A DNA stretch of 60,268 nt, filler included, from Sphacelaria rigidula (GCA_964200075.2; 2 parts of 2 records of this genome joined end to end with filler, not necessarily neighbours in it); one strand, 5' to 3'; positions 4,072 through 47,191 are shown, counted from the whole stretch's first letter. Numbers and translations are program-made. The notes: generated by a model not told the origin, from the sequence alone.

Positions 4072-4305
4072 CTACTCCGTCTCAGCCTCATCCTCAGACG
4101 ATCTCAATCCCAGGCCCACGGCGACCCTCTCAAAGATATTGCGCCCCCTGCCTCCCTTGCCTCCTTCGGTCGATACTTCCTCCGTGGGGGCGTCCTTTAC
4201 CGCGACCCCCACCGCGCCGCCCTCAACATCGCTACTGACTTCTCCAGCGCTAGTCATTCCAGCCGCCGCCTGATTTTTCGCCATCTCCGCTGTGCCGGCG
4301 CTAGT
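4072..4305 (-). CDS. Terminal exon of giant repeat gene (TSAGTAEMAKNQ...RNIFERVAVGLGLRSSEDEAETE*)
   Basis: Acceptor gcagcag (NAGNAG, alternative start 4308), phase 0; TAG stop at 4072-4074. Confidence 0.7.
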   Translation of the reverse strand, partial: TSAGTAEMAKNQAAAGMTSAGEVSSDVEGGAVGVAVKDAPTEEVSTEGGKGGRGRNIFERVAVGLGLRSSEDEAETE

Positions 4306-7300
4306 CTGCTGCGAGCGAGGCGTGGGGATCGTCCCGCGATCGCGGTGGGCGAGTGGACGCGCATGAACTAAACAGGTTTACTGTGTAACGTCGGAACGAA
4401 GCGACCGAACGCGTGCGCGAGATAGAGATAGAGCGAGTACACAAGAGAGCAGGTTACAGGTGCTGCGGTGAAGATAAAGCGGGGGATGGGAGTAGGCATG
4501 CACGGTACATCAGTGTGCAGCCGAACCCGTCGCAGCTCTCGAATAGCACAGCTCAACAACGGTGGAAATTCGCAAACGAACACACAGTCTAGTTTGTAAG
4601 GAACACTGGATTTTTTTAAGCGGTTGCGAAGACAAAAAAAACAAAAAAACAGTGATGACAAGATCCACGCTATCCTCATGCCGGAAAGCAGCATCTATAC
4701 ACAGGCCTGCGTGGGGAAGTCTTTAACCTTACAGCTTGCATACGATTCGAGTTCATCGATCCTGTAAGCATTACCGCACCAAACGAAAAAAAGAGAGTGT
4801 GCTTTTCTTCAAGATGAGTGATGGCGACTGCTGTAAACCTCCCCGCGCAAGATCTGCATCGAGCCCAAAATTTTCGCCTCATGTAACAAAGTCACCTGTT
4901 CACCGGAGCCCGTCAAGTTCGCGTTTACACGCGCGCCCGAAACATTTACGGACCCCTCGGTAGGTGCCGCCGCCGTGTCGACCCCGGAAGCCACATCAGC
5001 GGCACCCGCGGTATCAGCAGCGGTTTCGTCGTCAGAGCCAGTGCCTGTCACATACTCGACTGCGTCCGTCACAGTCTCCGCCACATCTTCCACGGCGTCG
5101 ATAATGCGTTCGAAGAATCCCGGACCACGCTCTGGTGCAGCTTCTTCGGTGGTTACTGCCGCGGCCGGTGCCGGTGCGGCTGTACAAGGATTGAAGGGTG
5201 GGGTCACGGGTTGAGCTTTTGGGGCTTGCATCACATATGTGCGTTGGGGAGGGGGGGTACTCATTTGCTGCTTGCCTTACAGCAGTCGTCTCACAATTAA
5301 CAACGCATCTCTCTCGAGACGGTGCGTTGGGGAAGAGAGGGGGAAGGAGAAGGGATGCTGCCTGGTGAAACCCTGCGGAAAATGCGGTAGAGTGGCGCTG
5401 TAATTGTATGACAGCACACAGAATCAACGAGTCAAAACAAACACGGGTTGTAATATTAGTTTTGCACCAGTTTCTCCGGATGCCAACAGACGAGTTCCTC
5501 GGACCATGACGGCAGTAGTACGACTGGTACTCCCACGAACCCTATATCCTTATTTTCTCCAGGGAACAACAAACTACCTTGTACAGTGACGCAGACCAGT
5601 AACTGCACTCTCATCGAACTTGTCAACACTGACCTTCCTCCTGCTCTTCTTCCTCGTGCTCGTCTTCCTCCCGCTCTTCTAGTGGATCCCTATCCCTGGC
5701 TCCGCCGGCGCCAAACAAGAACTTGAGATTGAACCTCGAGCCACCCGAGGTCCGCCTCCCACCTTCCGGCGACACCGAATCCTCATCGGCGACATCGGCC
5801 TCAGCCTTGGGAATCGCGGCAGGAGACTCAGTCATGTCCACCGTGGGTGTCGTAAAGGGCCCAGCTCCTGCCGTCTGCACGCCGGCAGATTCCAGGGCGG
5901 CTGCTACTTGGCCGGAGAATCCAGCACCATCTTCCTGCCCAGAGGAACCATCCCCGGCGGCCATACCATCAGTGATTGACTCTTCAGAAACATTCACTTC
6001 GGGGCCCTTTACGTCCACCGTCGAGATGTTGAGCGCGTCCCCGCTCGTCGCGCCGTCAGCGCCGCCATCACCATCACCTTCCTGAGAGCCTATTGCAGCG
6101 CCTAGGGCGGCGGAGAGTGAAGACGTCAGATCTTGCGTTCCGTCAGCAGTCCCGCTACCTCCACCTTCACCGGTCTCGGAAGATGCGGCCGCGTCGGTGC
6201 TGAGAGTGGGGGCACCTCCACTCGTATCGGGAACGGCCGCCGAAATTTCAGCGCCGGCGACCGAAGGCGTTGCTGCCACTTCGCCCTCCTCATCCTTCGG
6301 CAGGATGCTGCCGAACGCCGCTCCGAGCGCGGTCGTGAAGTCGCCACCACTGGCCTCGCCTTCCGCCTTGGAAGCACCTGATTTGTTGGGGGAGAGTGGT
6401 GAGTAGGTTAAACTCATGATATTTCCGCAGCGGGGATGTTTATGAACGATATACTTCGACTACAGCGCGGGGGTGTCCACAGGAAACACGTGAGGTGAGC
6501 GGAGAGTGCACCGGTGGAGCATGGCAGCACAGGTGACAGTGTGCACACCATAACAACTGGATCCAGCTACTGTTTTGACGGAACTGAAACGTCAACCCAT
6601 CTTCCCATCACCCACGCAAAACACACAGGCGTCCTCGCCAAGGCCGGAAAGCGTGGGAAGTCACTTTCCTTCATAGAGAGGTATTTGGGGTCATCATCGC
6701 GGGTGTCCCTTCCCTTCAAAGATACTGTACACGACGCAGATCCTACCCTACATGCTGAAACTGCCGCCACTGCTCCGGTATATAGGTCACGGACGTCCAA
6801 TCACGAAAAGAGTACAGTGTACTGTGCCCCTCAGTGTACTCTGTCCCCACTCGCTCGTGCGTGTGATTCCGTCACATTTACCAAACGGTCCCGGGGTGAC
6901 AAACTCACTTCCGGCGCCTTCCTTGCCTGAGTCAGGAGCACCTACACCGGTCGCTTCCGCACCGGATTTCTGGGCATCCTCAGGATCGGAGCTCTGATGT
7001 AGAAAAGGCGGCAGAAGATGACAAGACACGAAAACAATACCAAAAAGAATGAAGACAGGGCGGCCAAGGCTGAAGAGACAGGATGTAAGACTCCACTGTA
7101 TCCTCCTACGAATGTATGCCGCCCCGCGGCGGTAGTCTCACGGTACACCTTACACCATAAGGGCAAAAAAAAAACGGGTTCGATTCCAGCCTGGCTTTTT
7201 CTTCCTCTCCCAAATTTTTTATTTCCATCGTTGAAAACGTGAGTGGTGAGCAGCGAAAAGGGTGTATTTTGCTGTGTGTCAGACGAAAATCATCACATTG

Positions 7301-10300
7301 TGGGAGTGATGATCCAATCCGCGATTCCAAAAGGTGAGGCATGTACCGGGGGAGATACGGGTTAATCCCTCGTTGAGACCACGGGCTCTCCTCCCCCGTA
7401 CGAAGGGAAGGTGTTACAAATGAGACAAGGAAAAGAAAAGGAAGGAAAGAACGAGCAAAGTATATGGAGCGATCATACAAAACACAAAGACGGCCGCACA
7501 ACCAGCCTGTGCAATAAAAATATACTAAATTGTGAAACAACAGCTATTTTTTGCACCACAACTCAAAGCACGATACACGCCGCTCGAACACCGGAAACCC
7601 ACTGAATCCGGTCACACGCGTGCAACTACTCCCTGACGTTTACCTTGCGCTTGGCACCACCACCGGACAGCCTCCCGAAACCAAATCCAATACCGCTACT
7701 GCCGCCGGAGCCACCGTCTCCTGACGAAGAGACGGTCGCGGCAGGTGCTCCCGTGTCACCCGAGAAGCCTTCAGCGTCGGCACTGCCGCCGGTAGGGGCA
7801 GCACCGGGTGAGGTGGACTGTTTGATGGTAGCAAGCGGTGAGAAAAGGAAAGAAGATGGGGGGTCAGCAACAGATGGATCACCTCATACACAGGGTGGCT
7901 AACGGCTGACGTCTTGTTGTCCAGTCACCTAGGGGTCCGAAACTGTTCGACACCTGAGATTACCGGGTTGATGCTTGTAAATGTTCATGTCATGCCCACC
8001 TGCCTGAGGCTACGCCACATACTTTACTAACCAACGTTGAAGGGGGGCAGACAACTCCCGTGCTGAAGGTCCATGATCCCTAGGGTACGCTTTGCCTACT
8101 GAGGGGCAGGGCGACGTCTTGGTTTCTCCACTGCACGTTTCGGGCTCAAGCACCAATCTTGATATGCAAGAGTCGAGAGATAATTGCTCGCCACTGCCTC
8201 ATCACGGAGGACATACAATGGCTGTATGTAGCGCCCCCGTGAGACAACTCTCTGGGACCTGGTTCCTTTTACACCATGCAAGATCTCTTCATCCTATCCC
8301 GTCAAGGTGATGAATGAACGTTGCTTTCCGCAGAGAGTCGTCTAAAAATCATGCTACGACGGGCAAAGGAAAAATGTGCATAAAAGCTACGGACTGACCG
8401 ACCGACTCACGATCAGCCGATTAATCAACCTACCAAGAAGTACTCTCACTTTTTTTTTGCGGCCGATGAGACGTGAGAAGAACCGGCCCGAACTCTTGCG
8501 GCCGACCGAACTGGAGCCGGACCCGGGACTCATCCCATCCTTTCCTGAAGACAACGGGGCGACCACCACGTCATCTTCCGTCGTGGTGCTGAGCTGAAGA
8601 GGCAAGTTCCCTGTAGAAACCGCGACACTGGGTGCTGTCGCGCTCATGTCTGTCACGAAGCGGTGGCCAATGGCGGAGTAGAATGGAAGTTAACGACGAG
8701 AGTTGGGCAAAACTTCCAAACCTTCGAAGGTCGACACACAAGCTAAGGCCCAGTCTATTAGAAAGACGGGGGAAGAGACACAGATTGCATCGTGATGATG
8801 AGAATGTGTAACAGACAACCGGTGACAACCAACCACTTCACGTCCTCTTCTGTTTTGCTTTATTGCCTTCTTGCGAAAATTAGCCCAAGAAGATCCATTC
8901 GAGAGTGAAAATAAGAGTGAAATGGAGATTGAAAATGTCATGAGGAAACACAAAATGGTTGTGCCACACGCGGGCTGCTCGCTACAGTCATCCTCATTTT
9001 CACGATACCATCATCATTTTTTTGTTTTGATCAGAGGGAGCCAAAAAACGTGCGGCGAAGAAACGCAGACTCGGGAGGAATGATGAGGACGTGAGACGCT
9101 CGCGCACAGACGCATCCGCATGCAACAATTCCAACACTTTGTCTTCTCCGATCACACGAGGCCACATAGTTCATGATCATAATGCGATCGTGTTGAAAAC
9201 CGTGAGAAATTTCCCGGGTACTGCAACTTACCACCCTCCACGGTTGGCGCGTCGCCCGTTTCCACCGCGGCGGCGAGAGCACTAGCAGCGCCCTGGCTAT
9301 CAGTGCCTACCGACCCGTACTCCCCGAGACCGGAACTGGGTCTGCTGCCGACATCAAAGGAGCCAGAGACAGCTTTCGCAGACGGCGCCGAACTGTCATC
9401 CGAATGGCCTGATGAAGGGAGGAGTTTGACCAAACATGGTGTTGGGGTTCAACTAGAGGCAACCAGAAAAAAAAAAAAGGTTTCCGCATTGCAAGTGACG
9501 GACAGAGCGTACGATAGATCGCATGATCGTGGTACCGTGCAGTACTCAGCAATTAGCATGCCGCGCGCAAGCCGGGAGATGTTTTCCAAGGGAGGCACGA
9601 AGCGGCCCACTTAAAGCGTCACATAGTATCCACTCCTATAAGTAATGGCACCAGTGTCGAGAGGCAGAAAAACGGGAGGGACAGACTCACCTGCTGTAGA
9701 TACCGCTCCTCCCTCCAGGGACACCCCGAGGCCATCGCCAGCGGACGGCAACGGTCCGGCAATGTCGATACCTTCCACAGTGGTGTTTGCTTGCGGTGCG
9801 GCAGTGCCCGAGACGAACGGTGCGGCGGGAGTCTTGCCTTCCAGCGCGCTGATCCTGGCGGCTACACCTCCGGGCAAGGTCATCACACCCCCACCGCCCA
9901 TCTCCGGCGATTCGGCGTCGGGTTCCTCGGGAGTCTGTGCCTCGATAGCGCCCTGTAGCGCGGCTGCTCAACAAATGTCAACGTATACGATACAAGCTTC
10001 GGTTGGAATGTAGCTTGAAAGCCAAACATCACATTCGTCGAAACTACACCAGTACGCCGGGAGAGAAATGGCTCGATCCCTTGACACGACCGACTCTTCC
10101 CGAGGACAAAGGGCGGACAAGAAGTCAGAGGAGAGGAAGGAATGAACACGGAGTAACACTCTCGAGGACAATGAGGGAAACGACTTCAAAACGCTATGAC
10201 AGAAGAGGGTACAGGCCGGTGCCTGGCATCTTTTCGTCGAACGCGAAAAACATTTTTTTTTTTACGACAAATGAGCAAGAATCGTACCAACGCATAACGA

Positions 10301-13300
10301 CGTTCTGTCGAATCAAGCAGTCAGCACGAGGACCAGGGCCGATGTGACAACATGAATCACGGGTGCTACGACCGGTCGCCCCGGTGGTTCAGCTCGTGAA
10401 CCTCGAAACCTTTTGACGGTTGGGTCGTGGGTTCGAATCTCGGTGCAGTAACACGATTTGAGATTTTTTCCACACACGAAGCCCAACAGTGGACAGCGAC
10501 CACGTCGTGGGCACACAAAGTTCGAATCCACGGTCGACGAGGGAAAGGAATTGCCGAACCCCTTTCGCGATGAAAAACAACGCAAGCACCGCAGAAGGTG
10601 GAGTACTGAAACAAAATGAACAACGCGAAAAAAACTCCTGAGTTGGCCTTCCCCCTGTGTGACCCACCCCGACTGATACATGCTGCGCCCACGTATACCG
10701 AAACTGCGCCCACATATACCGAAAGGTGTAGACCGGCGTCCGTAGTAAATGGGATAATAACTGAACGACAACCCGTGACTGCTTCGTGAGGAGCGCGAAC
10801 ATGTGCCGACCCATCATCGTGGAAACTTACCTCCGAGATCCACCACGCCGGGTAGGGTCGCATCTCCCGAAGCTTCCGGTACAGCTACGGTGGCGCTGAC
10901 GCCCGGCATAGACGCTTCTCCAGATACTTCCGGCACAGTCACATCAGCGCTCACGCCTGGAACAGACGCATCTCCGGAAACTTTCGGTACGGCGACATCA
11001 GCGCTCACGTCTTGCACTGGATTGTCAACGGAAACTCCCGGTAGAGGCACATCGCCGCTCACATCGGAACCCGTCACGTCAGCGTCCGGCATCTGCATCG
11101 TGTCGAGTCACAGGGGTCAGGAGAGGACGGAAAAGGTTACAAAAAAAAACACGACGCCCATCCGCGCCATGCGCAACGTTGACTTTGTTGTACGGAATTG
11201 AATATCATCTGTAAGCCGCAACCTGTTCCGGTCGTGTACCCCCGAAACGCACATGACACCATCGACTCAGCATAGAGAGCGGCTGCCGGGACACAAAACT
11301 GCACACTTACCTTCAACCCAGCCTTGACGGAGGGCTTCTTGAAGATTCCGCCGAACCCGAAGCCCTTCTTCCGCTTCTTCTCATCTACCGATGGGGCCTC
11401 GACGGAAATACTGGTGCCGGGCACCTGCTTCGGCACGCAACACACACAAAAGTACTCAAACTCGATGTCGGTACGTCGGACGGGTCTCACCGTCACTCAA
11501 TGCCGAACAATGTTCGCAATACGGCCTGACCGCGTCTGGTATTGGGGTCCGTCACCAATCACGTGCAAGGACGGAACCACGCAAGTTCCCACCTCGGGTT
11601 TGTCGCCCTTGCCCGCCAGGCTGCCCAGCCCAGCACCGACTGCGCCGACAGTCGCCGCACCCGCTGCCGCCAGACCCGCGGTCAAAGAGCTGTCTCCGGT
11701 CTTGATATCCACATCCGGTGCCTTCACATCTACATCACCCGATGGCAACGACACATCCGCATCTGCGGATACTCCCGTCGTGGGCACTTCTCCAGAGGGT
11801 AGGGAAACGTCACCCGATACTCCCGGAAGGGACACGCCGCCAGACGGCAGATCCACCTTGCCTGTGACTGACGGGACGTCGGCATCCACACCGCCCGAAG
11901 GCAGCGTGACATCAGCGCCAACACCCGGTACAGACGCATCTCCCGAAACATCTGGCAACGACACATCGCCGCTCACGCTCGGCACGGACACATCTGCCGA
12001 GACTTCCGGTAAAGCCACATTGGCGCCCACATCGGGAACCGCTACATCAGCGTCCGGCATCTGTATAGCAACGTCATGGGGACCAAGGGGAAAAGAAGAC
12101 ATCACCTCCTGACATGTCGCATCTCACGAACGCACGCCATGCACATCGCTGACACTTTTTCTCAAGCCATGAACCTCCTTCGGTGGTGTACGTCATTGCA
12201 CAACGGCGGAATACCATTGCATCACGTGAGTGAGGTACAGTAGTAGCAAAAAAAGACCCCTCATGATTGACCTCACTTCTTGTGTTTTTTCAAGACTTTC
12301 AGGGTTTCACGGGACCGGTAGACGAACAGCAGAAACGTTGTTTTTGACTGCAAGTGATCAGAGTATTTTTTTCAGGCGATAATCCCACGACGACAATTGT
12401 GCAGCGTTAATTACCTGAGCATCAAGCTTCCATCAAAAATATTTTTTCGGGCTGACAATCTCGCCGAACGAAATCGGGTACTGTTACGGGGGGTACTTGA
12501 ATGATGCCGACAGTATACACTGAAGGGAAGATTATCACAGATGAAATACCCGCCTTCCATCAAGGTAGACCCGGTAAGTTTTTGGCGCCGAAGCCGAAAT
12601 TGATGGAACATCAATGCGTGCGTTCAGCATCATTTCCAAGTAGCCTCCGCTACCTAGTGCGGTGCAGCCGCGGGCTTGTGTGCGAATGCATGAACTCCGT
12701 CTACACGACACACACAGTACTTGAGTTCAAAGCATGGTATGTTGACTTATGGGCCAATTGAGGGTGCGATGCAGTTAATGAAAAGCACTTGCCGCAGCAG
12801 TAGCTGCTTGCGGCCAACTACGTGACAGCTTGTACCTGCCCGTCTCGGCTCACCGAGCGAAGAATTGTGTTCAATTGTTCAGTTGTTCAAGCACAGAGGT
12901 TATCTGAATTGGAAACAACATGGCAGCGCCATCACCTCGAGAGAGCAACCACCAATGCCTGCACATGCATGTGGCAACATTGAAATGCAATGTCGTGCGC
13001 CGTTTTTCTGCCAAACCCATCCTGACAGCACGCCCACAATGATGAACCAGCTGCAGCTGAAGTAACACGCGAATCTCCAAAATCCCTACGCTTCCCAACA
13101 TTCGAGTTTCCCGGATGACTCGAGGCAGGCGTTAATACAAGAAAAAAAAACATACATTCGGCCTCGAGGCCAACATTTCTCCCATTACAACCCGGTGCAC
13201 GACGGCCGTGGCGACACGACCCAAACACTGACCTTCAACCCAGCCTTGACGGAGGGCTTCTTGAATATCCCGCCAAATCCGAAGCCCTTCTTCGGCTTTC

Positions 13301-22300: not shown

Positions 22301-25300
22301 ACAGCTCAGTATAACCCGATACTGAACCTCACAACTCGGTGTGTGCACAGAGACCTTATCCAAGTTCCAATCCAAACCACTTTAGAGCTACTGCAACTGA
22401 TGGAAGGCTGCGGAAATTATTCGAGACCCGCGGCGTGTTGAAATAAACCTGCGCTCAAGACCCGCGGTGTTCAACTCGTCTTTGCACGAAACGGTATTAA
22501 GCTAGGCTACTAAACTCTCTAGTGAGTTTGACATGGAAAAAATCAGCCAAAGCCGAAACAAGGTATTTACAAGACACCGACAACGGAACAATGACTACAG
22601 CTCGGCAACACGCACGACAAAACCAATCTGCTTATGGTTCGTGATTCACCACTACAAACCGCCAAGAGGCTTTATAACCACTGCTAGACCGGACCAGTAA
22701 CTGGTAACGACAACACCACATACAGCCCTACCTCAGGCTTGTCGCCCTTGCCCGCCAGGCTGCCCAGCCCGGCGCCGACCGCGCCCACAGTCGCCGCTCC
22801 TGCTGCGGCCAGACCCGCGCTCAAAGAGCTGCCCTTCGTCTTCATGTCTACATCCGGTGCCGTCACCTCCACGCCGCCCGACGGCAACGATACATCTCCC
22901 GGTATGTCCGGCACGGTTGCATCACCGGACACGTCCGGGACAGCAGCGTCCACCGAACCAGACGGCAACGACACATTTGCATCTGCCGACACTCCTGGTA
23001 TGGAAACCTCTTCGGCGGGAAGAGAAACGTCACCAGATGGCAGATCCACCTTGCCTGTCATGGAAGGTATATCTACTTCCACACCGCCCGAGGGCAGCGT
23101 GACATCGGCGCTCACGTCTGGCACCGACGCATCTGCCGAGACTTCTGGTAAAGACACATCGCCGCTCACATCGGGAACCGTCACATCAGCGTCCGGCATC
23201 TGGGTCGCATGAAGTCATGGAAGCCGAGAGGGACGAGGTGCGAAAGAAATAGTCACCAACGGAAGACGAACACCATCGTTCCGCGTGCAACATTGACCTT
23301 GTCGTACATGACACAAGAATTTTACAGCGGAGAAATGTTGCGGTTGTTCACACCCTTACTTCAGGCGTCGAGCGCCATCGTATCGACTCGATTCGGTATA
23401 CACCAAACACCACGACAACAAAAATGATGCCCTCACCTTCAACCCAGCCTTGACGGAGGGCTTTTTGAAAATACCACCGAACCCGAAGCCCTTCTTCGGC
23501 CTTTTGACGTCCAGCGATGGCGACTCGACAGAGACGCTGGCGTCAGGCAGCTGCAACAGCAACGTACACACACGACAGCAGCCGAAGACGGCGAGCGACC
23601 GGTTGATTTTCGATGTACAACTCAATACCCAGCGTTCATGTTGGCATTGCTACCCGGCTGCCTTCTGCGCTACAAGCGGCAACACCCTGCCTATTTACAA
23701 GCTCTCCTCTGTCCGACACAGCACGATCACATCCGCTCGCGCGATTCAAATTAGCTCGCAAAAAAAATATTAAAAAAAAAGTCCAGCGCATCTGTCCGAA
23801 CAAAACGACTACGAGTCAAATACACGGTGTTCTGAGCACCCTGACAAGACCAGTCTACAGGAGTACCCGAGTTCACCCTCAAACGCGAAGTGTACTTGGT
23901 TTTCCAGAATTCCATCTATGGAACAGCAACCGCAGCTCGGAGAGCAAAGTTACTACCGAATCCTAAAACCCTGCTGCACAGTCAAAAGGCTTGGCCATGT
24001 GTAACAGCACTACATACAGCCCTACCTCAGGCTTGTCGCCCTTGCCCGCTAGGCTACCCAGTCCGGCACCAACTGCACCCAGAGTCGCAGCTCCCGCTGC
24101 GGCCAGACCCGCACTCGAAGAACTGTCCTCCGTCTTCATGTCTACATCCGGTGCCGTCACCTCCACGCCGCCCGACGGCAACGACACATCCGCTGCCACG
24201 TCGGGCACAGTAACGTCACCCGATACTGACGGAAGAGAAACGCTGTCAGAGGGCACATCTACCTCACCCGTCATCGAAGGAACGTCCACATCCATACCCC
24301 CCGAAGGCAGTGAGACATCAGCGCCCATGCTCGGCAGGGACACATCTGCGGAGGCTTCCGGTAAAGACACATCTCCACTCACGGTCGGCAGGGATGCATC
24401 TGCCGAGACATCCGGTACAGACGCATCGCCGCTGACATTGGGCACCGTCACATCAGCATCCGGCATCTGAAATTGTATCAAACGACGGGGGGCAGCGAGT
24501 GATGGGGTTGTCAATTATGGACACCACGCACACGAGCACCGCGCGCAGCGCAAAACGTTTTGTACGTCTAGCTTTTTGCACCAACGTGTTCGGTTGTTCA
24601 CACTTGTGCCTCAAGCGTCTCTCGAGAGCCGTTGTGCCGAGTCCACGCAGTATGCAGATGGCTCTCGGGACACAAACCACAGACTGACCTTCAACCCGGC
24701 TTCGACAGTGGGCTTTTTGAACATCCCACTGAATCCGAAGCTCTTCTTCGGCTTGTTCACGTCGAGCGACGGCGCCTCGACGGAGATGCTAGCATCGGGC
24801 ACCTGTTTCAGCAGTAACATACACAAATCCAAAACCACTCAAATCAACAAGGGATATCCGGTTCCGATTTGTGGCACTCGTTATACACCGCCGCTGCGGG
24901 TAAAATTACCCGACAACCCCTACAGCTAGGGGCGGCCAAACTATGATCTACAAACTTCGTCACGCTGGACACACCACGATGACATCACTTGTCACCAGTT
25001 TCTCTCGAAATAGGATTACAGCCAAGCGGTCACTTTGTCACTTGACAGTCACAAATAAACAGTCGACAGTCAGATACACTCCCGAGATGTCGGTACCCAC
25101 CCGGGAAGACTCGGCAGTAGGGCGAGACAATCAACAGTCCGAACGCGAACGCAAGTTCACCCCCACACACCGAACCCACGGGATTTCCGATACAAGATAT
25201 CCGTGAAACAGTGCAGACAGTTCAAACAAGCACAACTAGCGCCACAAGATCAATCCTCTACCGGTACGGAAGACCCTGTTACACACCGCCAAGGATCATC

Positions 25301-28300
25301 ACGACCAATACCACACAGTGTCAGTCACGCGAAACGACAACACCACATACAGCCTTACCTCAGGCTTGTCGCCCTTGCCCGCTAGGCTGCCCAGCCCGGC
25401 GCCGACCGCGCCCATAGTCGCCGCCCCTGCTGCGGCCAGGCCTGCAGTCGACGAACTGTCCCCGGTCTTCATGTCCACATCCGGAGCCGTCACCTCCACG
25501 CCGCCCGATGGCAACGACACATCCGCCGCCACGTCGGGCACAGCCGCATCTCCGGACACGTCCGGGACAGCAACGTCCACCGAACCAGACGGCAAAGCCA
25601 CATCTGCCGACACTCCCGGCACTGATACCTCTCCAGAGGGGAGAGACGCATCGCCAGATGGCAGATCCACCTTGCCCGTCATTGAAGGGACGTCTACGTC
25701 CACACCGCCTGAGGGCAGCGTGACATCAGTGCCCACGCCTGGCATGGACGTATCTCCCGAGACTTCGGGTACGGTAAAGTCAGCGCCCAGGCCCGGCACG
25801 GAAGCATCCACCGAAACATCTGGTAAAGACACATCGCCGCTCACGCTCGGCAAGGATGCGTCCGCCGAGACTTCCGGTAAAGACACGTCGCCGCTCACAT
25901 CGGGGACCGTAACATCAGCATCTGGCATCTGTAAAGCGAAGACGGCCGTCGGAGTTGGGAGAGTGATCAACTACGAATATTACGTACACGTGGACCACGC
26001 GCAGGGCTTGCACTGTTCACGGGAGTGTTCGCTCCACATTGTGACTGTTTCGATTGTGAACACCATGTATACTTGCACGAAATATCACAACAGCCGTGCG
26101 GAGACAACCGTGCTGACCTTCAACCCAGCCTTGCCGGAGGGCTTCTTGAACATCCCGCCAAATCCGAGACCCTTCTTCGGCTTTTTCACCTCTAGCGATG
26201 GCGACTCGACGGAGATGCTGGCATCGGGCACCTGCTCCGGCAAGCACACGAACACGCGGAAGTCCATTTCAGTAAGAGTGATCCGGGTGAGCCTCATGCA
26301 TAAACTCAGTACCGAGCCATGCTGTTCACAATGCTGCTTGGACGCCTCGTGGACTGGGGTAGGTCACACAGTTCAATGCGAGCTCGATTTACAATCGGGG
26401 GTGCGTGGGTAATGTTGGGATGGAGAGGGGGGGAGGGGGGTGCATGAGCTTTCCATGACGTGAACTCGCTTGTGTCCTTCTCTGACTGCTTTGCGCCTCA
26501 CTTGCTGGGTAAGGCCACACCGGACAGTTGTGCAACCAACAGGCGTGAAGGACAAACTGCCAGCAATACCTTTCATTCTTTTCCTCGTATCAACAATAAA
26601 ATGACATTCACAGCCGTCTAGATAATCAGTTGGAATCACGCCAGCACCGAAGCACCCACATGAAACAGGAGTATCGACTGTCGAGGTCTGGTTGCATACT
26701 GCGAAGGCTAGCGCATTGGTTTCGAAAGGGTCACAATATGACCCTACCTTACGGCCGCCGCCAATTCGGAATTCCTGTGCTGCGGATGTTGGAGAGCTAA
26801 TTTATGTTTGCGTGTCTACGTATGACTCCTCGTAAAAACTGCAATGGAATATTCGCAAAATCATCTCGTAGCGCCCAAGAACCTTGCGTAGGTTGCGGGT
26901 ATCTCCGGCGTGCGAACATATTCCTACAAGACAGTCACGATGTGACCCCCGTAGCAAGTGATTTCACGTGGAAGCCGCCTTATAAACTTGCGGGTAGACG
27001 CCCACTCCATGAGGCACTACGCTTATGAACGTGGATTCATGGAGTGAACTTTGAGGTCGCTGTTCAATACTGATCAATATCCCCTGCTTCCACCGGTGTC
27101 TTGGGGTTGCCGGGCTATATGGGAATACAGGAACGTTCAAAATACGGTAGAACCGATAGAAATTTCGTTGTACTGGACACTGATGATCTCAACTTCGAAT
27201 CTCTCAAGTAGGACGGGGAAAAGTGTGAACATGGAACTGATTGATATGATTGAGTCATTGTCGTACTTCAACTGATCCCCCAAGGGTCCAGTCGTGGTAA
27301 CACGTATTGTAGACAAAACTAGAAATGTAGCAAGAATATTCTCCACGATGGTCCACGAGGTCTTACTTCTTTCCTTTGCACGAGTAAGGCCAACTTTCAT
27401 TAGGTTACAGATTTTCGCTGAATTAATTTTTGTGTCAAACAATCCAATCGACCCTCATGTCGAGGTGCCGAACCCAACCTTGCAACAACCCATATCCTCC
27501 AACACACAGCAACGATCGGAGTCGGCACGTTTACATGACGTTCAGATAAACCTACCGAAGCAGCACGTGATGGCTTGAGGTACACTTGTAACGACACTAC
27601 ACACAGGCCTACCTCAGGCTTGTCACCCTTGCCCGCCAGACTGCCTAATCCGACCCCGACTGCGCCGACAGCCGCCGCTCCTGCTGCGGCCAGACCCGCA
27701 GTCAACGAGCTGTCCTTCGTCTCGATGTCTACATCCGGTGGCGTCACCTCCACACCGCCCGACGGCAACGACGCATCCGCCGCAATACTGTGCACAGTCG
27801 CATCTGACGACACTCCTGGCACATCTACATCAACCGAACCGGACGGCAGATCCATCTGCCCTGCCATCGAAGGGACCTCCACATCCACACCACCCGAGGG
27901 CAGGTTAACATCAGCGCCAACGCTCATTTCCGGCACGGATGCGGCGGCTGGGCCTTCCGGCAAAGAAACATCACCGCTCACATCGGGAACTGTTAGCTCA
28001 GCGTCCGGCATCTGCATCGTATCAGGTTATGAGGGCAAGCGAGGACATGAAAAACTCAGGATGGGAAATAGCGCATTTGACAGCCATGCCCAATGCTGGC
28101 AATTCCGTACAAGGTGGACGTTGTCTCAAACCGCGACCTGTTGCGATCGTGTGTACGTCAATGGAGCTCCCACCGCCGTGTCAACTCGACGGAGTATGCA
28201 CAAAAGCTATCGGAACAATCGACGCACTCTGACCTTCAAACCCGCCTTCACGGAGGGCTTCTTGAAGATCCCGCCGAACCCGAAGCCCTTCTTCGGCTTC

Positions 28301-29964
28301 TTCACGTCTACCGATGGCGACTCGACGGAGACGCTGGCATCTGGTACCTGCATTAACGGCGACACAGACATGATACCTAACTTTAACGAAGGTAACCCGG
28401 TTGAGATCCAAATACAGCTCCGAACCGAGCAAAGCTGTGCGGTACACCACGCAGCTGCCTCCAGCACTAGAAGCGGCCACACACTGACCCTCTCCAAGCA
28501 TCGTCTTAGTAACACCAAAAATAAGATCGACTTGCATGCGGACGGGTAGCTCGACTACAACGAAATACTCAAGCATCCGCTCATAGGTTCTTGAAACGGT
28601 GGTCGGTGAGCTACACTCGTGCGTATTCGTGTTGAACCATGTATACCAATCTTTGTGCCGACCAAAAAGCGTCACCGAGTAGGCAACTTTACCTGCCCAC
28701 ACGCAGCCCATCGAGTTCCCGGGAAGCACCGCTTGCGATACAAATCAACAATTTGAACACCCACGACAATTACAGTCTCTTCTTCAATTGTGAGACCCAA
28801 TCAAAGTCTTACCACAGGCTTCAAAGACTGATACTACACAAAGCCGGTCACGTGTGACGGTATCACACACATCCTCACCTCAGGCTTGTCGCCCTTGCCC
28901 GCCAGACTGCCCAGCCCGACGCCGATCGCGCCCACAGTCGCCGCACCCGCTGCTGCCAGACCCGCGGTCAGAGAACTGTCTCCGGTCTTGATATCTACAT
29001 CCGGTGCCTTCACATCTACGTCGCCCGACGGCATCGACACATCCGCATCTGCCGACACCCCCGGCATCGACACATCACCAGACGGCAGATCCACCCCTCC
29101 GGTCATCGAAGGGGCGTCTACGTCCACGCTACCTGAAGGTAGCGTGACGTCAGCGTCCACGCCCGGCAGGTTTGCCCCTCCCGAAACATCTGGCACTGAC
29201 ACACCGCCGCTCACGCTCGGCAAGGACGCATCGGCCGAGACTTCCGGTGAGGAAGCATCGATACTCACGCCAGGCGAGAACGCTTTTGAGCCCGGAGCCT
29301 GTCGGTTCAAGCGGAGAACATCGAAGATTGAATTCAAGGGCACAGCGGTGACTTTACAACATCATCGAGGATCGTGCTCAGATGGACGATGAGTTCAGTG
29401 GATCATGCACGGCAAAAGCTCCCAGGAGAATGTGCAGAAATCCTGCGTGGGGTTGGGAGGGCGCCATGCTTGCGCAAGTTTTTTTCACATTCAAGTCGCG
29501 GTATGAAGGGTGTTGCCCCGAAATATGCCACATCTCAAACTAACGGTGACGACAAAACGAATTGCCCCGAAAACGCTCCTCCCGCAAGTGTTGTGAACGG
29601 CCCCAGGTTTGTCACGTTCGGTGATCGGTTGTTCGAGCAAGCGGGTATAGACTTGCATCCCCTGCTGGTTCGTCTTCCTCATCCACTATGTATCTCTCGC
29701 AGTCTGTCAAAACTGGTGTAGCCCACAGCACCTACAAACCTCCAGCGGGAAGCTTTCTTACCTGTGTGTCCCCCTTGCTACCCAGCTTTAGCATCCCGCC
29801 GACTGCGGCGGCTCCCGCCGCAGCTCCCGCCGCTATACCGCTCGCAAGACCAAGCTTCCCGCTGTCCCCTTCTGCGGAAACACCCGGGGCAGTTACGTCC
29901 AGATCGGCGGAGGGCAGCTGACCCTCAATGTTCACAGACGGACCCTGGGGGGCTTTCACCTCGT
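4072..29964 (-). CDS. Giant multi-exon gene (34 exons visible, 5'-incomplete, at least 3196 aa): acidic Pro/Val/Asp/Ser/Gly repeat protein with 12 A/B modules, compositionally AHNAK/periaxin-like, function unknown
   Basis: Hand-built GT-AG model, 5' to 3': 29762-29964, 28879-29298, 28234-28347, 27613-28011, 26118-26231, 25359-25928, 24689-24802, 24026-24466, 23437-23550, 22732-23199, 21254-21367, 20517-21032, 19854-19967, 18924-19376, 18272-18385, 17624-18058, 17090-17206, 16486-16893, 15864-15980, 15148-15690, 14521-14634, 13834-14295, 13233-13346, 11593-12060, 11311-11424, 10831-11092, 9691-9963, 9232-9408, 8450-8649, 7644-7817, 6909-6993, 5634-6377, 4896-5179, 4072-4305. Total 9593 nt = 2 + 3x3197. 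All phases join and there are no internal stops. Confidence 0.85.
4896..5179 (-). CDS. Exon of giant repeat gene (APAPAAAVTTEEAAPERGPGFFERIIDAVEDVAE...GSGEQ)
   Basis: Acceptor ttgtacag phase 1, donor CAG/gtgact phase 0; donor choice less certain. Confidence 0.7.
5634..6377 (-). CDS. Exon of giant repeat gene (ASKAEGEASGG...RFNLKFLFG...EEEQEE)
   Basis: Acceptor aaatcag, donor G/gtcagt, phase 1-1, 744 nt, acidic low-complexity ORF. Confidence 0.8.
6909..6993 (-). CDS. Exon of giant repeat gene (SSDPEDAQKSGAEATGVGAPDSGKEGAG)
   Basis: Acceptor acatcag, donor A/gtgagt, phase 0-1. Confidence 0.75.
7644..7817 (-). CDS. Exon of giant repeat gene (STSPGAAPTGG...GIGFGFGRLSGGGAKRK)
   Basis: Acceptor caaacag, donor AAG/gtaaac, phase 0-0; this frame is not shown in the ORF track. 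Confidence 0.75.
8450..8649 (-). CDS. Exon of giant repeat gene (MSATAPSV...GRFFSRLIGRKKK)
   Basis: Acceptor gtgacag phase 1, donor AAA/gtgaga phase 0. Confidence 0.75.
9232..9408 (-). CDS. Exon of giant repeat gene (HSDDSSAPSAKAVSG...APTVEG)
   Basis: Acceptor tcatcag, donor G/gtaagt, phase 1-1. Confidence 0.75.
9691..9963 (-). CDS. Exon of giant repeat gene (ALQGAIEAQTPEEPDAESPEMGG...GAVSTA)
   Basis: Acceptor tgagcag, donor G/gtgagt, phase 1-1. Confidence 0.75.
10378..10770 (+). mobile_element. tRNA-derived SINE, near full length, in an intron of the giant gene
   Basis: Head with A box TGGTTCAGCTC (10385) and GGGTCGTGGGTTCGAATC B-box region (~10422-10439). The body recurs inverted at 46956-47191, 48021-48338 and 52656-52716. 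Confidence 0.75.
10831..11092 (-). CDS. Truncated 13th A-type repeat exon (MPDADVTGSDVSGD...VVDLG), lacking the hydrophobic segment
   Basis: Acceptor gatgcag phase 0, donor G/gtaagt phase 1. Confidence 0.85.
11311..11424 (-). CDS. B exon, module 12 (VPGTSISVEAPSVDEKKRKKGFGFGGIFKKPSVKAGLK)
   Basis: 114 nt, phase 0-0, AG/GT boundaries. Confidence 0.9.
11593..12060 (-). CDS. A exon, module 12
   Basis: 468 nt, phase 0-0, MPDADV...GKGDKPE. Confidence 0.9.
13233..13346 (-). CDS. B exon, module 11
   Basis: 114 nt, phase 0-0, TPDAGISVETPAVDERKPKKGFGFGGIFKKPSVKAGLK. Confidence 0.9.
13834..14295 (-). CDS. A exon, module 11
   Basis: 462 nt, phase 0-0. Confidence 0.9.
14521..14634 (-). CDS. B exon, module 10
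   Basis: 114 nt, phase 0-0. Confidence 0.9.
15148..15690 (-). CDS. A exon, module 10
   Basis: 543 nt, phase 0-0, TAG acceptor. Confidence 0.9.
15864..15980 (-). CDS. B exon, module 9 (117-nt KKSSFGLSGIFKKSPGR variant)
   Basis: 117 nt, phase 0-0. Confidence 0.9.
16486..16893 (-). CDS. A exon, module 9
   Basis: 408 nt, phase 0-0. Confidence 0.9.
17090..17206 (-). CDS. B exon, module 8 (117-nt KKSSFGFSGIFKKSPGR variant)
   Basis: 117 nt, phase 0-0. Confidence 0.9.
17624..18058 (-). CDS. A exon, module 8
   Basis: 435 nt, phase 0-0. Confidence 0.9.
18272..18385 (-). CDS. B exon, module 7
   Basis: 114 nt, phase 0-0. Confidence 0.9.
18924..19376 (-). CDS. A exon, module 7
   Basis: 453 nt, phase 0-0. 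Confidence 0.9.
19854..19967 (-). CDS. B exon, module 6
   Basis: 114 nt, phase 0-0, MPDASVSVESPSLEVKKPKKSFGFGGMFKKPSGKAAFK. Confidence 0.9.
20517..21032 (-). CDS. A exon, module 6
   Basis: 516 nt, phase 0-0. Confidence 0.9.
21254..21367 (-). CDS. B exon, module 5
   Basis: 114 nt, phase 0-0. Confidence 0.9.
22732..23199 (-). CDS. A exon, module 5
   Basis: 468 nt, phase 0-0. Confidence 0.9.
23437..23550 (-). CDS. B exon, module 4
   Basis: 114 nt, phase 0-0. Confidence 0.9.
24026..24466 (-). CDS. A exon, module 4
   Basis: 441 nt, phase 0-0. Confidence 0.9.
24689..24802 (-). CDS. B exon, module 3
   Basis: 114 nt, phase 0-0. Confidence 0.9.
25359..25928 (-). CDS. A exon, module 3
   Basis: 570 nt, phase 0-0; the longest A exon. 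Confidence 0.9.
26118..26231 (-). CDS. B exon, module 2
   Basis: 114 nt, phase 0-0. Confidence 0.9.
27613..28011 (-). CDS. A exon, module 2
   Basis: 399 nt, phase 0-0. Confidence 0.9.
28234..28347 (-). CDS. B exon, module 1
   Basis: 114 nt, phase 0-0. Confidence 0.9.
28879..29298 (-). CDS. A exon, module 1 (divergent start APGSKAFSPG)
   Basis: 420 nt, phase 0-0, acceptor ccgacag. Confidence 0.85.
29762..29964 (-). CDS. Most 5' visible exon (EVKAPQGPSVNIEGQLPSADLDV...GIAAGAAAGAAAVGGMLKLGSKGDTQ), a divergent A-like unit
   Basis: Acceptor aacacag phase 1 (so an upstream exon must exist), donor CAG/gtaaga phase 0. Confidence 0.75.
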
Positions 29965-30095: not shown

Positions 30096-30195
30096 NNNNN
30101 NNNNNNNNNNNNNNNNNNNNNNNNNNNNNNNNNNNNNNNTTAATTAATTAANNNNNNNNNNNNNNNNNNNNNNNNNNNNNNNNNNNNNNNNNNNN
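30096..30195. other. Assembly gap with artificial TTAATTAATTAA linker
   Basis: N runs flanking TTAATTAATTAA at 30140-30151. Confidence 0.9.
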
Positions 30196-30304: not shown

Positions 30305-30700
30305 ATTTCATGTCTTTGTCCGGGTTGTATTCTAGTTAGTGCAAAGAAACAAATGGCAGTTGTTTTTTTTCACGACTATATCCGGTCTGCGTTCTGGTGC
30401 TGCAAAGAAAAGTTCAGACAACTTATTTTTTTCATGTCTACATCCGTGCTGTGTTTTGGTAATGCGAAGAAAAATCGGCTAGCTTCTTTATCTCATGTCC
30501 ATGTCCGGGCTGTGTCGTAATTAAAAAAAAAAAAAAAAAAATAGCTTTGCTATCTCATGCCCATGTCCGGGCTGTGTTCTGGTGACGCAAAAAAATGTAT
30601 GGTTTCGTTACGTCATGTCTTATTCGGTCTCTATTTTTACATGGGAGCACAAATTGTTTATTTTTGTAATTTCATGTCTACTGCGTCTGTTGGTCTGGGG
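30305..30700. repeat. Degenerate ~60-bp minisatellite, about 7 units
   Basis: Recurring TCATGTC..TGTCCGGGCTGTGTT core followed by an A-rich tract. Confidence 0.6.
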
Positions 30701-39058: not shown

Positions 39059-39454
39059 ACTTTTTCCACGCGAAAACTCTAAAACGACGATGCGCCACTC
39101 ATTTTCTCAGGGCTTAGAGTGGAACCTCGGCACCAGAGAAACCGCACTCAGACCTACCTTGTCCCGAATCTAGCCCCTTCTTTTTCTCTCTCTCGCTTGA
39201 GGGATTTGAAAATAGTCCAACAAATCGAATCGCCCAATAAAGTTCGGGTGATTTTTTTTTAGAAGGCCGAGGTCGTAACACGATAGGCCCAAGTGATGGT
39301 GCATAGATTTGCTGCACGCCAATACTATGCTACCAGCCCACTACGGTAATAATTAATGCATTCGATACCCTACTCAGCGCAACACCGTGGTACAGTGGTG
39401 AACGGACACTATGGTAGACGAAGAGACCGGAGCTCAGTACACTTGACAGCCACG

Positions 39455-46955: not shown

Positions 46956-47191
46956 TGTGTGTGTGTGTGTGTGTGCGTTGTCCCATCTGTTCTGGACGCC
47001 GATCTACACCTTTCGGTATATGTGGGCGCACCAGCCGAGGTCACAGAGGAGGAAGGTCAACACGTTTTTGTTTCTTTTTTATTTGTTTTCAGTACCCGAC
47101 CTTCCTTCTGCGGTGCTCGCCTTCTTTTTTTATTGCGAGAGGGGTCCAGCAGTCCCTTTTCGTCGTCGACCGTTGAGTCGAATTTCGTACC
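46956..47191 (-). mobile_element. 5'-truncated SINE copy with (CA)n tail
   Basis: Matches the 3' part of 10378-10770; (TG)n on the plus strand at 46956. Confidence 0.75.

What the first reader, a model, noticed from the sequence alone, without database searches (positions are those of the whole stretch)
4072..29964. Uncharacterised giant (>3000 aa) modular acidic/hydrophobic/basic repeat protein built from 12 tandem two-exon cassettes
Seen: 34 exons splice in frame with no stop or frameshift over 9.6 kb, while the introns diverge and gain insertions, so the gene looks functional. Each ~170-230 aa module has three parts: acidic P/V/D/S/G repeats with almost no aromatics or Cys, a ~25-aa Gly/Ala hydrophobic stretch, and a Lys/Phe/Gly basic patch. 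I recognise no globular domain. Known: metazoan AHNAK and periaxin are giant membrane scaffolds with similar V/D/P alternating repeats and K/F patches, but they carry the repeats in one huge exon. Inference: a convergent, non-animal AHNAK-like cortical or membrane scaffold, or a charge-blocked condensate former, with exon-level modularity. This is the best candidate for an undescribed system in the window.
Basis: partly seen in the sequence, partly recalled or inferred. Interest (0 to 1): 0.9.

Follow-up and report, generated by a model that had tools for sequence, protein, structure and literature searches.

The report
Giant AHNAK-like modular repeat protein gene
This is a real, spliced and selectively maintained gene for a very large, very acidic repeat protein of an uncharacterised seaweed family whose repeats resemble those of the animal scaffold AHNAK but carry an extra greasy segment and a basic patch in every module; its function is still unknown.

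Summary
On the minus strand, 34 exons (29964 down to 4072) join through 33 GT..AG introns into one open frame of 3196 codons. Twelve two-exon cassettes, all phase 0-0, give modules of 171-228 aa. Contigs of three runs guessed to be RNA carry 13 of the 25 model introns in the laid stretch as GT..AG joints; a DNA-like run shows none. Cassette exons align to each other over 95-98% of their length, introns over 3-5%. dN/dS among cassettes is 0.15-0.27. The 5' end is missing because a contig join lies about 130 nt upstream.

No Pfam domain was found, and AlphaFold2 gives no fold (pLDDT 52). Vertebrate AHNAK proteins are the top database hits. That similarity survives random permutation of the proline-delimited 7-9 aa blocks and vanishes on residue shuffling, so it lies only in the short block. 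The full three-part module recurs only in unnamed Ectocarpus proteins (one model ending in TPR repeats) and in one Ulva model behind a diacylglycerol-kinase domain.

Best reading (about 0.4): a cytosolic, multivalent membrane or cortex scaffold. This is a new variant of the AHNAK kind, not a member of the family. The function is untested.

The parts
29762..29964 (-). Exon N1: first exon present in the window. It enters in mid-codon and is a degenerate A-type exon with a Gly/Ala stretch.
   Evidence: Weak tblastn hit; AG acceptor and GT donor, frame; splicing inferred, no reads laid here.
28879..29298 (-). Exon A1 (140 aa)
28234..28347 (-). Exon B1 (38 aa)
27613..28011 (-). Exon A2 (133 aa)
26118..26231 (-). 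Exon B2
25359..25928 (-). Exon A3 (190 aa, the longest; folded)
24689..24802 (-). Exon B3
24026..24466 (-). Exon A4 (147 aa; query P0001)
23437..23550 (-). Exon B4 (query P0002)
22732..23199 (-). Exon A5
21254..21367 (-). Exon B5
20517..21032 (-). Exon A6
19854..19967 (-). Exon B6
   Evidence: joint to A7
18924..19376 (-). Exon A7
   Evidence: joint 19374->19852 (cut +2)
18272..18385 (-). Exon B7
   Evidence: joint 18058->18272
17624..18058 (-). Exon A8
   Evidence: joints
17090..17206 (-). Exon B8 (39 aa)
   Evidence: joint 17205->17623 (cut +1)
16486..16893 (-). Exon A9
15864..15980 (-). Exon B9 (39 aa). B8-A9 and B9-A10 look like a recent duplicate pair, introns included.
   Evidence: (families D11, D12)
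15148..15690 (-). Exon A10
14521..14634 (-). Exon B10
   Evidence: joint 14295->14521
13834..14295 (-). Exon A11
13233..13346 (-). Exon B11
   Evidence: loose end at 13233
11593..12060 (-). Exon A12
   Evidence: joint 11421->11590 (cut +3)
11311..11424 (-). Exon B12
10831..11092 (-). Exon T1: acidic nonapeptide repeats without a Gly/Ala stretch
   Evidence: joint 9963->10831 and loose end at 11094
9691..9963 (-). Exon T2
   Evidence: joints; frame
9232..9408 (-). Exon T3
8450..8649 (-). Exon T4 (ends in a small basic/aromatic patch)
7644..7817 (-). Exon T5 (ends in a GFGFG-type basic patch)
6909..6993 (-). Exon T6
5634..6377 (-). Exon T7 (247 aa, net -39, no Pfam family)
4896..5179 (-). Exon T8
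4072..4305 (-). Exon T9 with the stop codon at 4074-4072
4378..4380 (-). Alternative acceptor at 4380. It places a TAA directly after exon T8, giving an isoform 77 aa shorter at the C-terminus.
   Evidence: joint 4380->4896 in X1-X3; sequence context
30096..30195 (.). Two N runs around a six-frame stop linker: a contig join that cuts off the 5' end of the gene

Best explanation
The locus is a transcribed, correctly spliced gene under purifying selection. It encodes at least 3196 aa (about 304 kDa, pI about 4, net charge about -267) of a modular, largely unstructured repeat protein. The protein belongs to an uncharacterised family seen so far in brown algae (Ectocarpus) and, in one gene model, in the green seaweed Ulva.

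Each of the 12 modules has four parts in order:
1. 12-18 proline-delimited blocks, mostly 9 aa, with strictly alternating apolar (V, A/G, V, L) and polar/acidic (S/D, S, D, S/T) positions. This is the pattern of an amphipathic beta-strand with one acidic face, the same grammar as the AHNAK repeat.
2. A near-invariant Gly/Ala-rich apolar stretch of about 24 aa, rich in small-xxx-small spacings.
3. A short acidic linker.
4. A polybasic patch with Phe and Gly.

Inferred mechanism: the protein is cytosolic. It attaches to a membrane or cortex at many points, through the basic/aromatic patches (electrostatic binding to acidic lipids plus Phe insertion) helped by the Gly/Ala segments (shallow insertion or tight helix packing). 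The polyanionic repeat arms act as extended spacers or as a brush.

The phase 0-0 two-exon cassette lets the array grow by unequal crossing-over without breaking the frame.

Shown: gene structure, expression-type splicing, selection, module anatomy, family distribution, and the limits of the AHNAK likeness. Inferred: location, membrane binding and scaffold role.
For: Gene model:
- 34 exons, 33 of 33 introns GT..AG, one open frame of 3196 codons.
- 13 of the 25 model introns inside 4001-24000 are among the 15 joints listed for X1-X3. None appears in the DNA-like run X5. 28 further joints were not shown.

Selection:
- dN/dS is 0.18 for the B exon (45 pairs), 0.18 for the A tail and 0.15 for the Gly/Ala stretch (55 pairs each), and 0.27 for the acidic repeats (66 pairs).
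- Exons align over 95-98% of their length at 76-83% identity; introns align over 3-5%.

Block grammar:
- 56% of Pro-Pro spacings are 9 and 17% are 7, with alternating positions.

AHNAK likeness:
- 558 hits at E<=1e-3. The top ones are giant PDZ-bearing proteins, named AHNAK.

Full module elsewhere:
- It is present in Ectocarpus sp. (P0157, followed by TPR_10/TPR_12), in E. fasciculatus (P0160, whose annotated N-terminus has no evident signal peptide) and in Ulva mutabilis (P0164, behind a DAGK accessory domain).
- The module core of P0130 scores 27.6 bits against the Ulva protein. The best of 30 shuffles scores -5.6 and the reverse -13.5. It matches 0 of 9 animal AHNAK-like proteins.

The fusion partners are cytosolic domain types, and one of them acts on a membrane lipid. 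Identical modules cannot alternate sides of a membrane, which argues for peripheral rather than spanning attachment (inference).
Against: - There is no experimental or structural evidence for membrane binding or for location.
- The N-terminus of this gene is missing, so a signal peptide or targeting domain cannot be excluded.
- AlphaFold2 gives no structure (pLDDT 52, pTM 0.14). The ESM Atlas model of a relative has pLDDT 0.29.
- The Gly/Ala stretches are only marginally hydrophobic: Kyte-Doolittle 1.4-1.8, and a summed Hessa scale of +2.7 to +4.0 kcal/mol. The scale values were recalled, not taken from a tool.
- The Ulva and Ectocarpus fusions come from automatic gene models, two of which contain obvious retained introns.
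- A net charge of -267 would repel acidic membranes unless it is screened by cations.
- dN/dS among repeats of one gene can be distorted by gene conversion and by codon bias (GC3 0.65).
Confidence: 0.4

Rival explanations
1. A self-assembling fibrous or elastomeric protein, or a condensate scaffold. The Gly/Ala blocks zip molecules together, as in silk or in the prion hydrophobic core. The long acidic proline-punctuated arms act as entropic springs or, with cations or basic partners, drive phase separation. The exon-per-unit layout would parallel titin PEVK and tropoelastin.
For: - Composition: G 14.6, V 13.4, S 13.3, A 13.0, D 9.4, P 8.9%, with no Cys.
- Blocky charge: A exons -14 to -26, B exons +2 to +6.
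- No predicted fold.
- The Gly/Ala stretch is near-invariant, with dN/dS 0.15.
- All cassettes are phase 0-0.
- The comparisons with silk, prion protein, PEVK and elastin are recalled, not tested.
Against: - A strong net negative charge (-267) disfavours self-coacervation without counter-ions.
- The conserved polybasic/Phe patch and the DAG-kinase and TPR fusion partners point more to attachment than to a bulk material.
- No assembly evidence was obtained.
Confidence: 0.25
2. A secreted cell-wall, matrix or adhesive protein of seaweeds, whose acidic Asp/Ser repeats bind Ca2+ together with alginate or ulvan.
For: - The whole module is so far seen only in macroalgae (Ectocarpus, Ulva).
- The Asp/Ser-rich periodic repeats have Asp fixed at block positions 2 and 6.
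- The N-terminus of this gene is unknown.
Against: - No Cys at all.
- The annotated N-terminus of P0160 shows no evident signal peptide (read by eye).
- Relatives are fused to cytosolic domain types: TPR_10/12 and DAG kinase.
- No hit to the RTX calcium-binding repeat or to any wall-protein family in Pfam.
Confidence: 0.15
3. A polytopic membrane protein in which the 13 Gly/Ala stretches are transmembrane helices.
For: 13 apolar stretches of 19 aa or more, flanked by charged residues. Gly/Ala-rich transmembrane helices do exist (ATP synthase subunit c, recalled).
Against: - Marginal hydrophobicity, with a positive summed insertion energy for all 13.
- All modules have identical flanks, yet a spanning topology would need alternating orientation.
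- Acidic loops of about 150 aa would have to be translocated at every second module.
Confidence: 0.05
4. A non-functional repeat array or an over-read gene model.
For: Low-complexity, repetitive sequence. The kind of runs X1-X4 is only guessed to be RNA.
Against: - 33 of 33 canonical introns and one open frame of 3196 codons.
- GT..AG joints in X1-X3 but not in X5, and zero depth in some intron bins.
- dN/dS 0.15-0.27.
- Introns have diverged beyond alignment while exons are kept.
Confidence: 0.02

Closest known systems
AHNAK / AHNAK2 / periaxin (vertebrate giant scaffold proteins)
   Same: - Giant size, and no fold predicted for the repeats.
- Repeats are built from proline-delimited blocks of odd length with alternating apolar and polar residues. 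Odd spacings (5, 7, 9) dominate in both, and the literature describes this as a beta-strand 'polyionic rod' (PMC2196192, introduction passage).
- Vertebrate AHNAKs are the best HMMER hits of an A exon: E down to 3e-133 summed over 35-70 stretches, 30-35% identity.
- Both have recurrent basic/aromatic patches between the acidic blocks.
   Different: - The preferred block is 9 aa here, against 5-7 aa in AHNAK.
- The repeats are purely acidic: K is 2% in the A exon, against 9-15% in the hits shown.
- The module is 171-228 aa with a Gly/Ala apolar stretch, which none of the AHNAK-type hits (K above 8%) has, instead of the 128-aa unit.
- Permuting the blocks leaves the scores unchanged (461-589 bits against 588.5), so no higher-order unit is shared.
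- The module core hits 0 of 9 animal proteins.
- There are 34 exons, whereas AHNAK is an intronless gene.
- A PDZ domain was not seen in relatives and cannot be tested here.
Unnamed Ectocarpus proteins (P0157 Ectocarpus sp.; P0160 E. fasciculatus, partial) and Logan-derived fragments (P0034, P0077, P0097, P0119, P0130 and others)
   Same: - The whole three-part module in the same order. P0034 is 71% identical to A4; the others are about 45-65% identical.
- Genomic ORF fragments run into an intron at the same place, directly after the ...KPE end of the A unit.
   Different: P0157 and P0085 end in TPR_10/TPR_12 repeats. The window protein instead has a tail of about 810 aa that is low in complexity and acidic. 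None of these relatives is characterised.
Ulva mutabilis gene model UM007_0150.1 (P0164)
   Same: Co-linear modules: acidic Pro/Val/Asp/Ser blocks, then a Gly/Ala stretch, an acidic linker and a KPKKGF..G..F..KK patch. The core scores 27.6 bits, against at most -5.6 for 30 shuffles.
   Different: It comes from a green alga. It has an N-terminal diacylglycerol-kinase accessory domain. Similarity is low (about 24 bits per module). It is a single automatic gene model, so a merged model, gene transfer or contamination cannot be excluded.
Schistosoma AHNAK-like proteins (P0175, P0184, P0188; P0009 and P0042 carry the same motif)
   Same: Acidic proline-delimited blocks with up to 41% identity to the A exon, and a recurrent PKFGFGLGKKK patch that resembles the B exon patch.
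   Different: They are Lys-rich, have no Gly/Ala stretch, and are not hit by the module core.

Membership tests
AHNAK/periaxin family | N-terminal AHNAK/periaxin-type PDZ domain | tested here: inconclusive
   The 5' end of the gene lies beyond a contig join. The relatives P0160 and P0164, which have annotated N-termini, show no PDZ in Pfam. PDZ as a shared feature: PMC7072810 passages.
AHNAK/periaxin family | Central domain made of about 128-aa repeat units | tested here: not met
   Modules are 171-228 aa. Block permutation does not lower the scores. The module core hits 0 of 9 animal proteins. The 128-aa unit: PMC2196192 introduction.
AHNAK/periaxin family | Short proline-marked motif with alternating hydrophobic and hydrophilic residues | tested here: met
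   Pro-Pro spacings of 9 (56%) and 7 (17%), with alternating positional composition. HMMER similarity is lost on residue shuffling (0 bits in 10 of 10) and on reversal (13 bits).
AHNAK/periaxin family | Polyampholyte, Lys-rich repeats ('polyionic') | tested here: not met
   The A exon has K 2.0% and D+E 16.3%. 130 of the 159 proteins then held have K above 8%.
AHNAK/periaxin family | Repeats encoded without introns, in one giant exon | tested here: not met
   34 exons and 33 introns. AHNAK is intronless: PMC2196192.
AHNAK/periaxin family | S100A10/annexin A2 binding motif | not tested
   The motif is known only from a passage in PMC7072810. No alignment was attempted.
Algal three-part module family (unnamed) | Co-linear acidic P-blocks, a Gly/Ala stretch of about 24 aa ending ...G-D-K-P, an acidic linker and a KKPKK-G-F/L..GG..F-KK patch | tested here: met
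   Present in 12 of 12 cassettes and in P0157, P0160, P0130, P0119, P0077, P0097 and P0164.
RTX calcium-binding nonapeptide repeat (beta-roll) | GGxGxDxUx nonapeptide consensus (recalled) | tested here: not met
   The Pfam scan at E<=1 lists only DUF4097 and one other family. The block consensus is P-[S/D]-V-S-x-D-V-[S/T]-[L/V]. Only the 9-aa period and the Asp at position 6 coincide.
Toastrack DUF4097 (PF13349) | Score at or above Pfam's gathering threshold | tested here: not met
   22.0 bits against a cut-off of 22.9. The same family is precomputed on many vertebrate AHNAK entries, so it reflects the shared repeat grammar. AlphaFold2 predicts no such fold.
Polytopic membrane protein | Segments hydrophobic enough for transmembrane insertion | tested here: inconclusive
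   13 stretches have Kyte-Doolittle means of 1.4-1.8 and a positive summed Hessa scale of +2.7 to +4.0 (scale values recalled; no dedicated predictor available).
FG nucleoporins | Many FG motifs separated by short spacers (recalled) | tested here: not met
   There is one GFGFG-type patch per module of 171-228 aa.

The most novel reading that the evidence does not exclude
The algal proteins are true, ancient homologues of animal AHNAK. The proline-punctuated beta-strand 'polyionic rod' with interspersed basic/aromatic patches would then be a pre-metazoan scaffold module kept in flatworms, vertebrates, brown algae and a green seaweed. The algae would have added a conserved glycine-zipper-like membrane segment to each module, turning the rod into a multi-point membrane tether that carries different heads (TPR, DAG kinase).
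Probability: 0.15. Interest if true: 0.8.

Novelty: new variant of a known kind. Interest (0 to 1): 0.55.

Why it matters
In the papers I read, AHNAK and periaxin are treated as vertebrate proteins with no relatives outside their own small family. One paper reports no land-plant counterpart beyond a low-complexity match (PMC2196192, PMC7072810 and PMC3817587, passages only).

Here the same repeat grammar appears in a spliced gene under selection that encodes more than 3000 aa in a brown-alga-like organism. It comes with two extra conserved elements per module and a two-exon cassette layout that shows how such arrays grow.

If the membrane-tether reading is right, this would be a new type of cortical scaffold in macroalgae. 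It would also be a natural comparison for asking what the AHNAK repeat does physically.

If the likeness is convergent, it is a clear case of independent invention of one sequence solution.

Either way, the family is unannotated in the Ectocarpus and Ulva gene sets seen here.

Tried and rejected
- **Whole genome:** not held.
- **RNA holders:** no listed holder is on record as RNA. X1-X4 are only guessed to be RNA.
- **Possible exon skipping:** the joint 13346->22732, which skips 9385 nt, looked like in-frame skipping of seven cassettes. It is rejected. The last 30 nt of A5 and A11 are identical and the joint has only 30 letters on its short side, so it equals the ordinary A11->B11 junction.
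- **Intron identity by end-free global alignment:** uninformative, 0.72-0.77 against 0.76 for random windows. It was replaced by blastn coverage.
- **Structure prediction:** AlphaFold2 on exon A3 with a 23-row alignment gave pLDDT 52 and no secondary structure. No fold search was made on it.
- **ESM Atlas:** no usable feature hit for P0130, and all structure rows had TM at or below 0.32.
- **Solved structures:** a PDB sequence profile search gave 0 hits at E<=1.
- **Self-association:** four copies of the module core (P0130 residues 150-231) gave no support (score 0.02, mark 0.32). This is no evidence either way.
- **RNA genes:** no tRNA genes and no Rfam families in the window.
- **A 7-residue identity** between the Ectocarpus and Schistosoma units, seen by eye. 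phmmer with the module core finds no Schistosoma or vertebrate protein, so it is not used.
- **Supplementary files** of papers were not consulted. None bears on a claim made here.

Full report
**Observation**

The repeats reported at 4072-29964 are real and lie on the minus strand.
- Repeat finding gives 9-15-copy families with a spacing of about 1.2-2.3 kb. Read on the minus strand, the copies are coding.
- tblastn with one A exon and one B exon finds 12 of each in strict alternation.
- All 24 exons are phase 0-0. Acceptors are cag|. Donors are GAG|gt(a/g)(g/a)g after A and AAG|gt(c/a/g/t)ag after B.
- Adding one upstream exon and nine downstream exons gives 34 exons and 33 introns. All 33 are GT..AG, and 32 of 33 acceptors are CAG. 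The spliced length is 9593 nt, read as 3196 codons with one stop at 4074-4072.
- The first exon begins in mid-codon. About 130 nt upstream, two N runs enclose a six-frame stop linker (30096-30195), which marks a join between contigs. The true 5' end and N-terminus are therefore not in the window.

**Expression and splicing**

No run is on record as RNA. Four runs of one study hold 36-41% of the sampled words of 4001-14000, and runs of a second study hold 84-94%.

I laid contigs of X1-X3 and of the DNA-like run X5 on 4001-24000.
- X1-X3 carry joints whose skipped parts begin CT and end AC on the plus strand, which is GT..AG on the minus strand. X5 has none.
- Of the 15 joints listed, 13 coincide with 13 of the 25 model introns inside that stretch: all eight tail introns and five cassette introns.
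- One listed joint is an alternative acceptor at 4380. It puts a TAA directly after exon T8 and gives a C-terminally shorter isoform.
- One listed joint (13346->22732) is a mapping ambiguity, because A5 and A11 share their last 30 nt.
- 28 further joints were not displayed.
- Splicing between 24001 and 29964 was not tested with reads.

**Selection**

| Region | Pairs | dN/dS |
|---|---|---|
| B exon (10 copies) | 45 | 0.18 (dN 0.10, dS 0.57) |
| Last 45 codons of A (11 copies; A8 left out for an indel) | 55 | 0.18 |
| 24-codon Gly/Ala stretch | 55 | 0.15 |
| Acidic repeats | 66 | 0.27 |

Exons align to each other over 95-98% of their length at 76-83% identity. The introns between them align over only 3-5%. 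Intron lengths range from 168 to 1381 nt.

The cassettes are therefore old and individually maintained. One pair (B8-A9 and B9-A10) still shares its intron at 82-89% identity, so the array has also grown recently (families D11 and D12).

Caveats: gene conversion and codon bias (GC3 0.65) can distort these ratios.

**Anatomy of the protein**
- About 304 kDa, pI about 4.05, net charge -267. Composition is G 14.6, V 13.4, S 13.3, A 13.0, D 9.4, P 8.9%. There is no Cys, no Trp, 2 Tyr and 3 His.
- Each A exon (133-190 aa, net -14 to -26) is a run of proline-delimited blocks. 56% of Pro-Pro spacings are 9 and 17% are 7.
- The block consensus is P-[S/D]-V-S-[A/G/V]-D-V-[S/T]-[L/V]. Odd positions are apolar and even positions polar or acidic, which is the pattern of an amphipathic beta-strand.
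- Each A exon ends with ...APDVD.KT..SS, then a near-invariant Gly/Ala-rich stretch of 24 aa, then KGDKPE.
- Each B exon (38-39 aa, net +2 to +6) has a short acidic part followed by a KKPKKGFGFGG.FKKP-type patch.
- With the degenerate first exon there are 13 Gly/Ala stretches. Their Kyte-Doolittle means are 1.4-1.8, and the summed Hessa-scale values are +2.7 to +4.0 (scale values recalled). They are apolar but marginal for a transmembrane helix.
- The nine tail exons (about 810 aa) are acidic and of low complexity. Several end in smaller basic/aromatic patches.

**No known domain or fold**
- Pfam gives only a sub-threshold DUF4097 match for the A exon (22.0 bits against 22.9). It gives nothing for the B exon or for the largest tail exon.
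- A PDB profile search finds nothing at E<=1.
- AlphaFold2 on exon A3 with 23 aligned sequences gives pLDDT 52, pTM 0.14 and no secondary structure.
- The ESM Atlas model of a relative has pLDDT 0.29.

**Relation to AHNAK**

An exhaustive HMMER search with exon A4 finds 558 proteins at E<=1e-3.
- The top ones are proteins of 4000-7500 aa with 30-70 matched stretches at 30-35% identity. They carry the AHNAK-type PDZ region and Lys-rich repeats, and names them AHNAK.
- The matches cover only the acidic blocks (query positions about 1-115).

I ran a control against 124 such proteins with the repeat part of A3.

| Query | Score |
|---|---|
| Real sequence | 588.5 bits (best single stretch 54.0) |
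| Ten residue shuffles | 0 bits each |
| Reversed sequence | 13 bits |
| Ten random permutations of the Pro-delimited blocks | 461-589 bits (best stretch 46-61) |

The likeness is therefore not compositional. It lies wholly in the short block, and no higher-order unit is shared.

Other differences:
- AHNAK-type hits prefer spacings of 5 and 7.
- They are Lys-rich: 130 of the 159 proteins held at that point have K above 8%.
- None of the AHNAK-type hits has a Gly/Ala stretch.
- Human AHNAK is intronless, with 128-aa units (PMC2196192, introduction passage).

This locus fails most defining features of the family while sharing its repeat grammar. Homology and convergence cannot be separated with these data.

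**The real family**

Short database proteins cover the whole A exon including the Gly/Ala stretch, and several run on into a B-type patch (P0034 at 71% identity; P0077, P0085, P0097, P0119, P0130 and others).

Three relatives are named.
- **An Ectocarpus sp. protein (P0157)** has one module followed by TPR_10/TPR_12 repeats.
- **A partial 1202-aa E. fasciculatus protein (P0160)** has serial modules. Its annotated N-terminus shows no evident signal peptide and has no Pfam family.
- **An Ulva mutabilis model (P0164)** has a diacylglycerol-kinase accessory domain followed by co-linear modules with their own Gly/Ala stretch and KPKKGF..G..F..KK patch.

The 82-aa module core of P0130 scores 27.6 bits against the Ulva protein. 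The best of 30 shuffles scores -5.6 and the reverse -13.5. It finds none of 9 vertebrate or Schistosoma AHNAK-like proteins.

Genomic ORF fragments of relatives run into an intron directly after the ...KPE end of the A unit, so the exon boundary is conserved.

The nearest named relatives place the window's organism near the brown algae.

**Mechanism**

I commit, at about 0.4, to a cytosolic multi-point membrane or cortex tether.
- The basic/Phe patches would bind acidic lipids.
- The Gly/Ala segments would add shallow insertion or tight packing.
- The polyanionic strand-prone arms would act as spacers.

Three arguments support this. All are inference.
1. The two best-conserved elements of each module are the apolar stretch and the basic patch.
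2. Identical modules cannot alternate across a membrane, which favours peripheral attachment.
3. Relatives attach the same modules to cytosolic heads, one of which acts on a membrane lipid.

The rivals are a self-assembling or elastomeric or condensate-forming protein (0.25), a secreted wall or adhesive protein (0.15), a polytopic membrane protein (0.05) and a non-functional array (0.02). A four-copy complex prediction of the module core gave no verdict.

**Literature**
- 'AHNAK' with 'brown alga' gave 1 paper, judged unrelated from its title.
- 'AHNAK' with 'Ectocarpus' gave 0 papers.
- 'AHNAK-like' gave 12 papers, all on animals (listing only).
- 'AHNAK' with 'algae' gave 11 papers, 10 of them listed, none on an algal protein judging by titles and abstract starts.
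- One of these (PMC3817587, passages) reports that the best land-plant BLAST hit to human AHNAK matches only a low-complexity region.

As far as these searches reach, I found no description of this family.

**Verdict**

This is a new variant of the AHNAK kind of giant repeat scaffold, in an uncharacterised algal family, with function unknown but testable. Interest 0.55.

Noticed in passing
window 30096-30195 (also 10-N gaps at 2277-2286, 50852-50861, 55208-55217): Two 44-N runs enclose a short six-frame stop linker, so the window is a concatenation of at least two contigs. Everything above 30195 is not necessarily linked to the gene.
   Followed up: partly
window 10399-10741, inside the intron 9964-10830; copies at 47011-47188 and 48068-48338: A high-copy interspersed repeat. 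Word depth in the DNA-like run X5 is 31,000-56,000 here against about 26 elsewhere. blastn finds 72-74% identical copies on the other side of the window. ARAGORN and Rfam find nothing.
   Followed up: partly
window 4378-4380: An alternative acceptor used in X1-X3 places a TAA right after exon T8 and would remove the last 77 aa.
   Followed up: yes
window 15596-16008 and 16799-17234: B8-A9 and B9-A10, with the intron between them, are 82-89% identical. This is a recent one-cassette duplication inside an otherwise old array (D11 and D12).
   Followed up: partly
window 39454-39926: A tandem repeat of a 236-nt unit, 2.0 copies, 96% matches.
   Followed up: no
window 30406-30590: Three tandem copies of a unit of about 62 nt, next to poly-A and poly-C tracts, just beyond the contig join.
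   Followed up: no
window 4668-5334: A depth spike in X5 (about 5559 against about 26) and a break between X5 contigs near 5250-5278 suggest a short high-copy sequence in the intron next to exon T8.
   Followed up: no
P0009, P0042, P0175, P0184, P0188 (Schistosoma-type proteins): Flatworm giant proteins with AHNAK-like blocks carry a recurrent PKFGFGLGKKK patch that resembles the B-exon patch of the algal module.
   Followed up: partly
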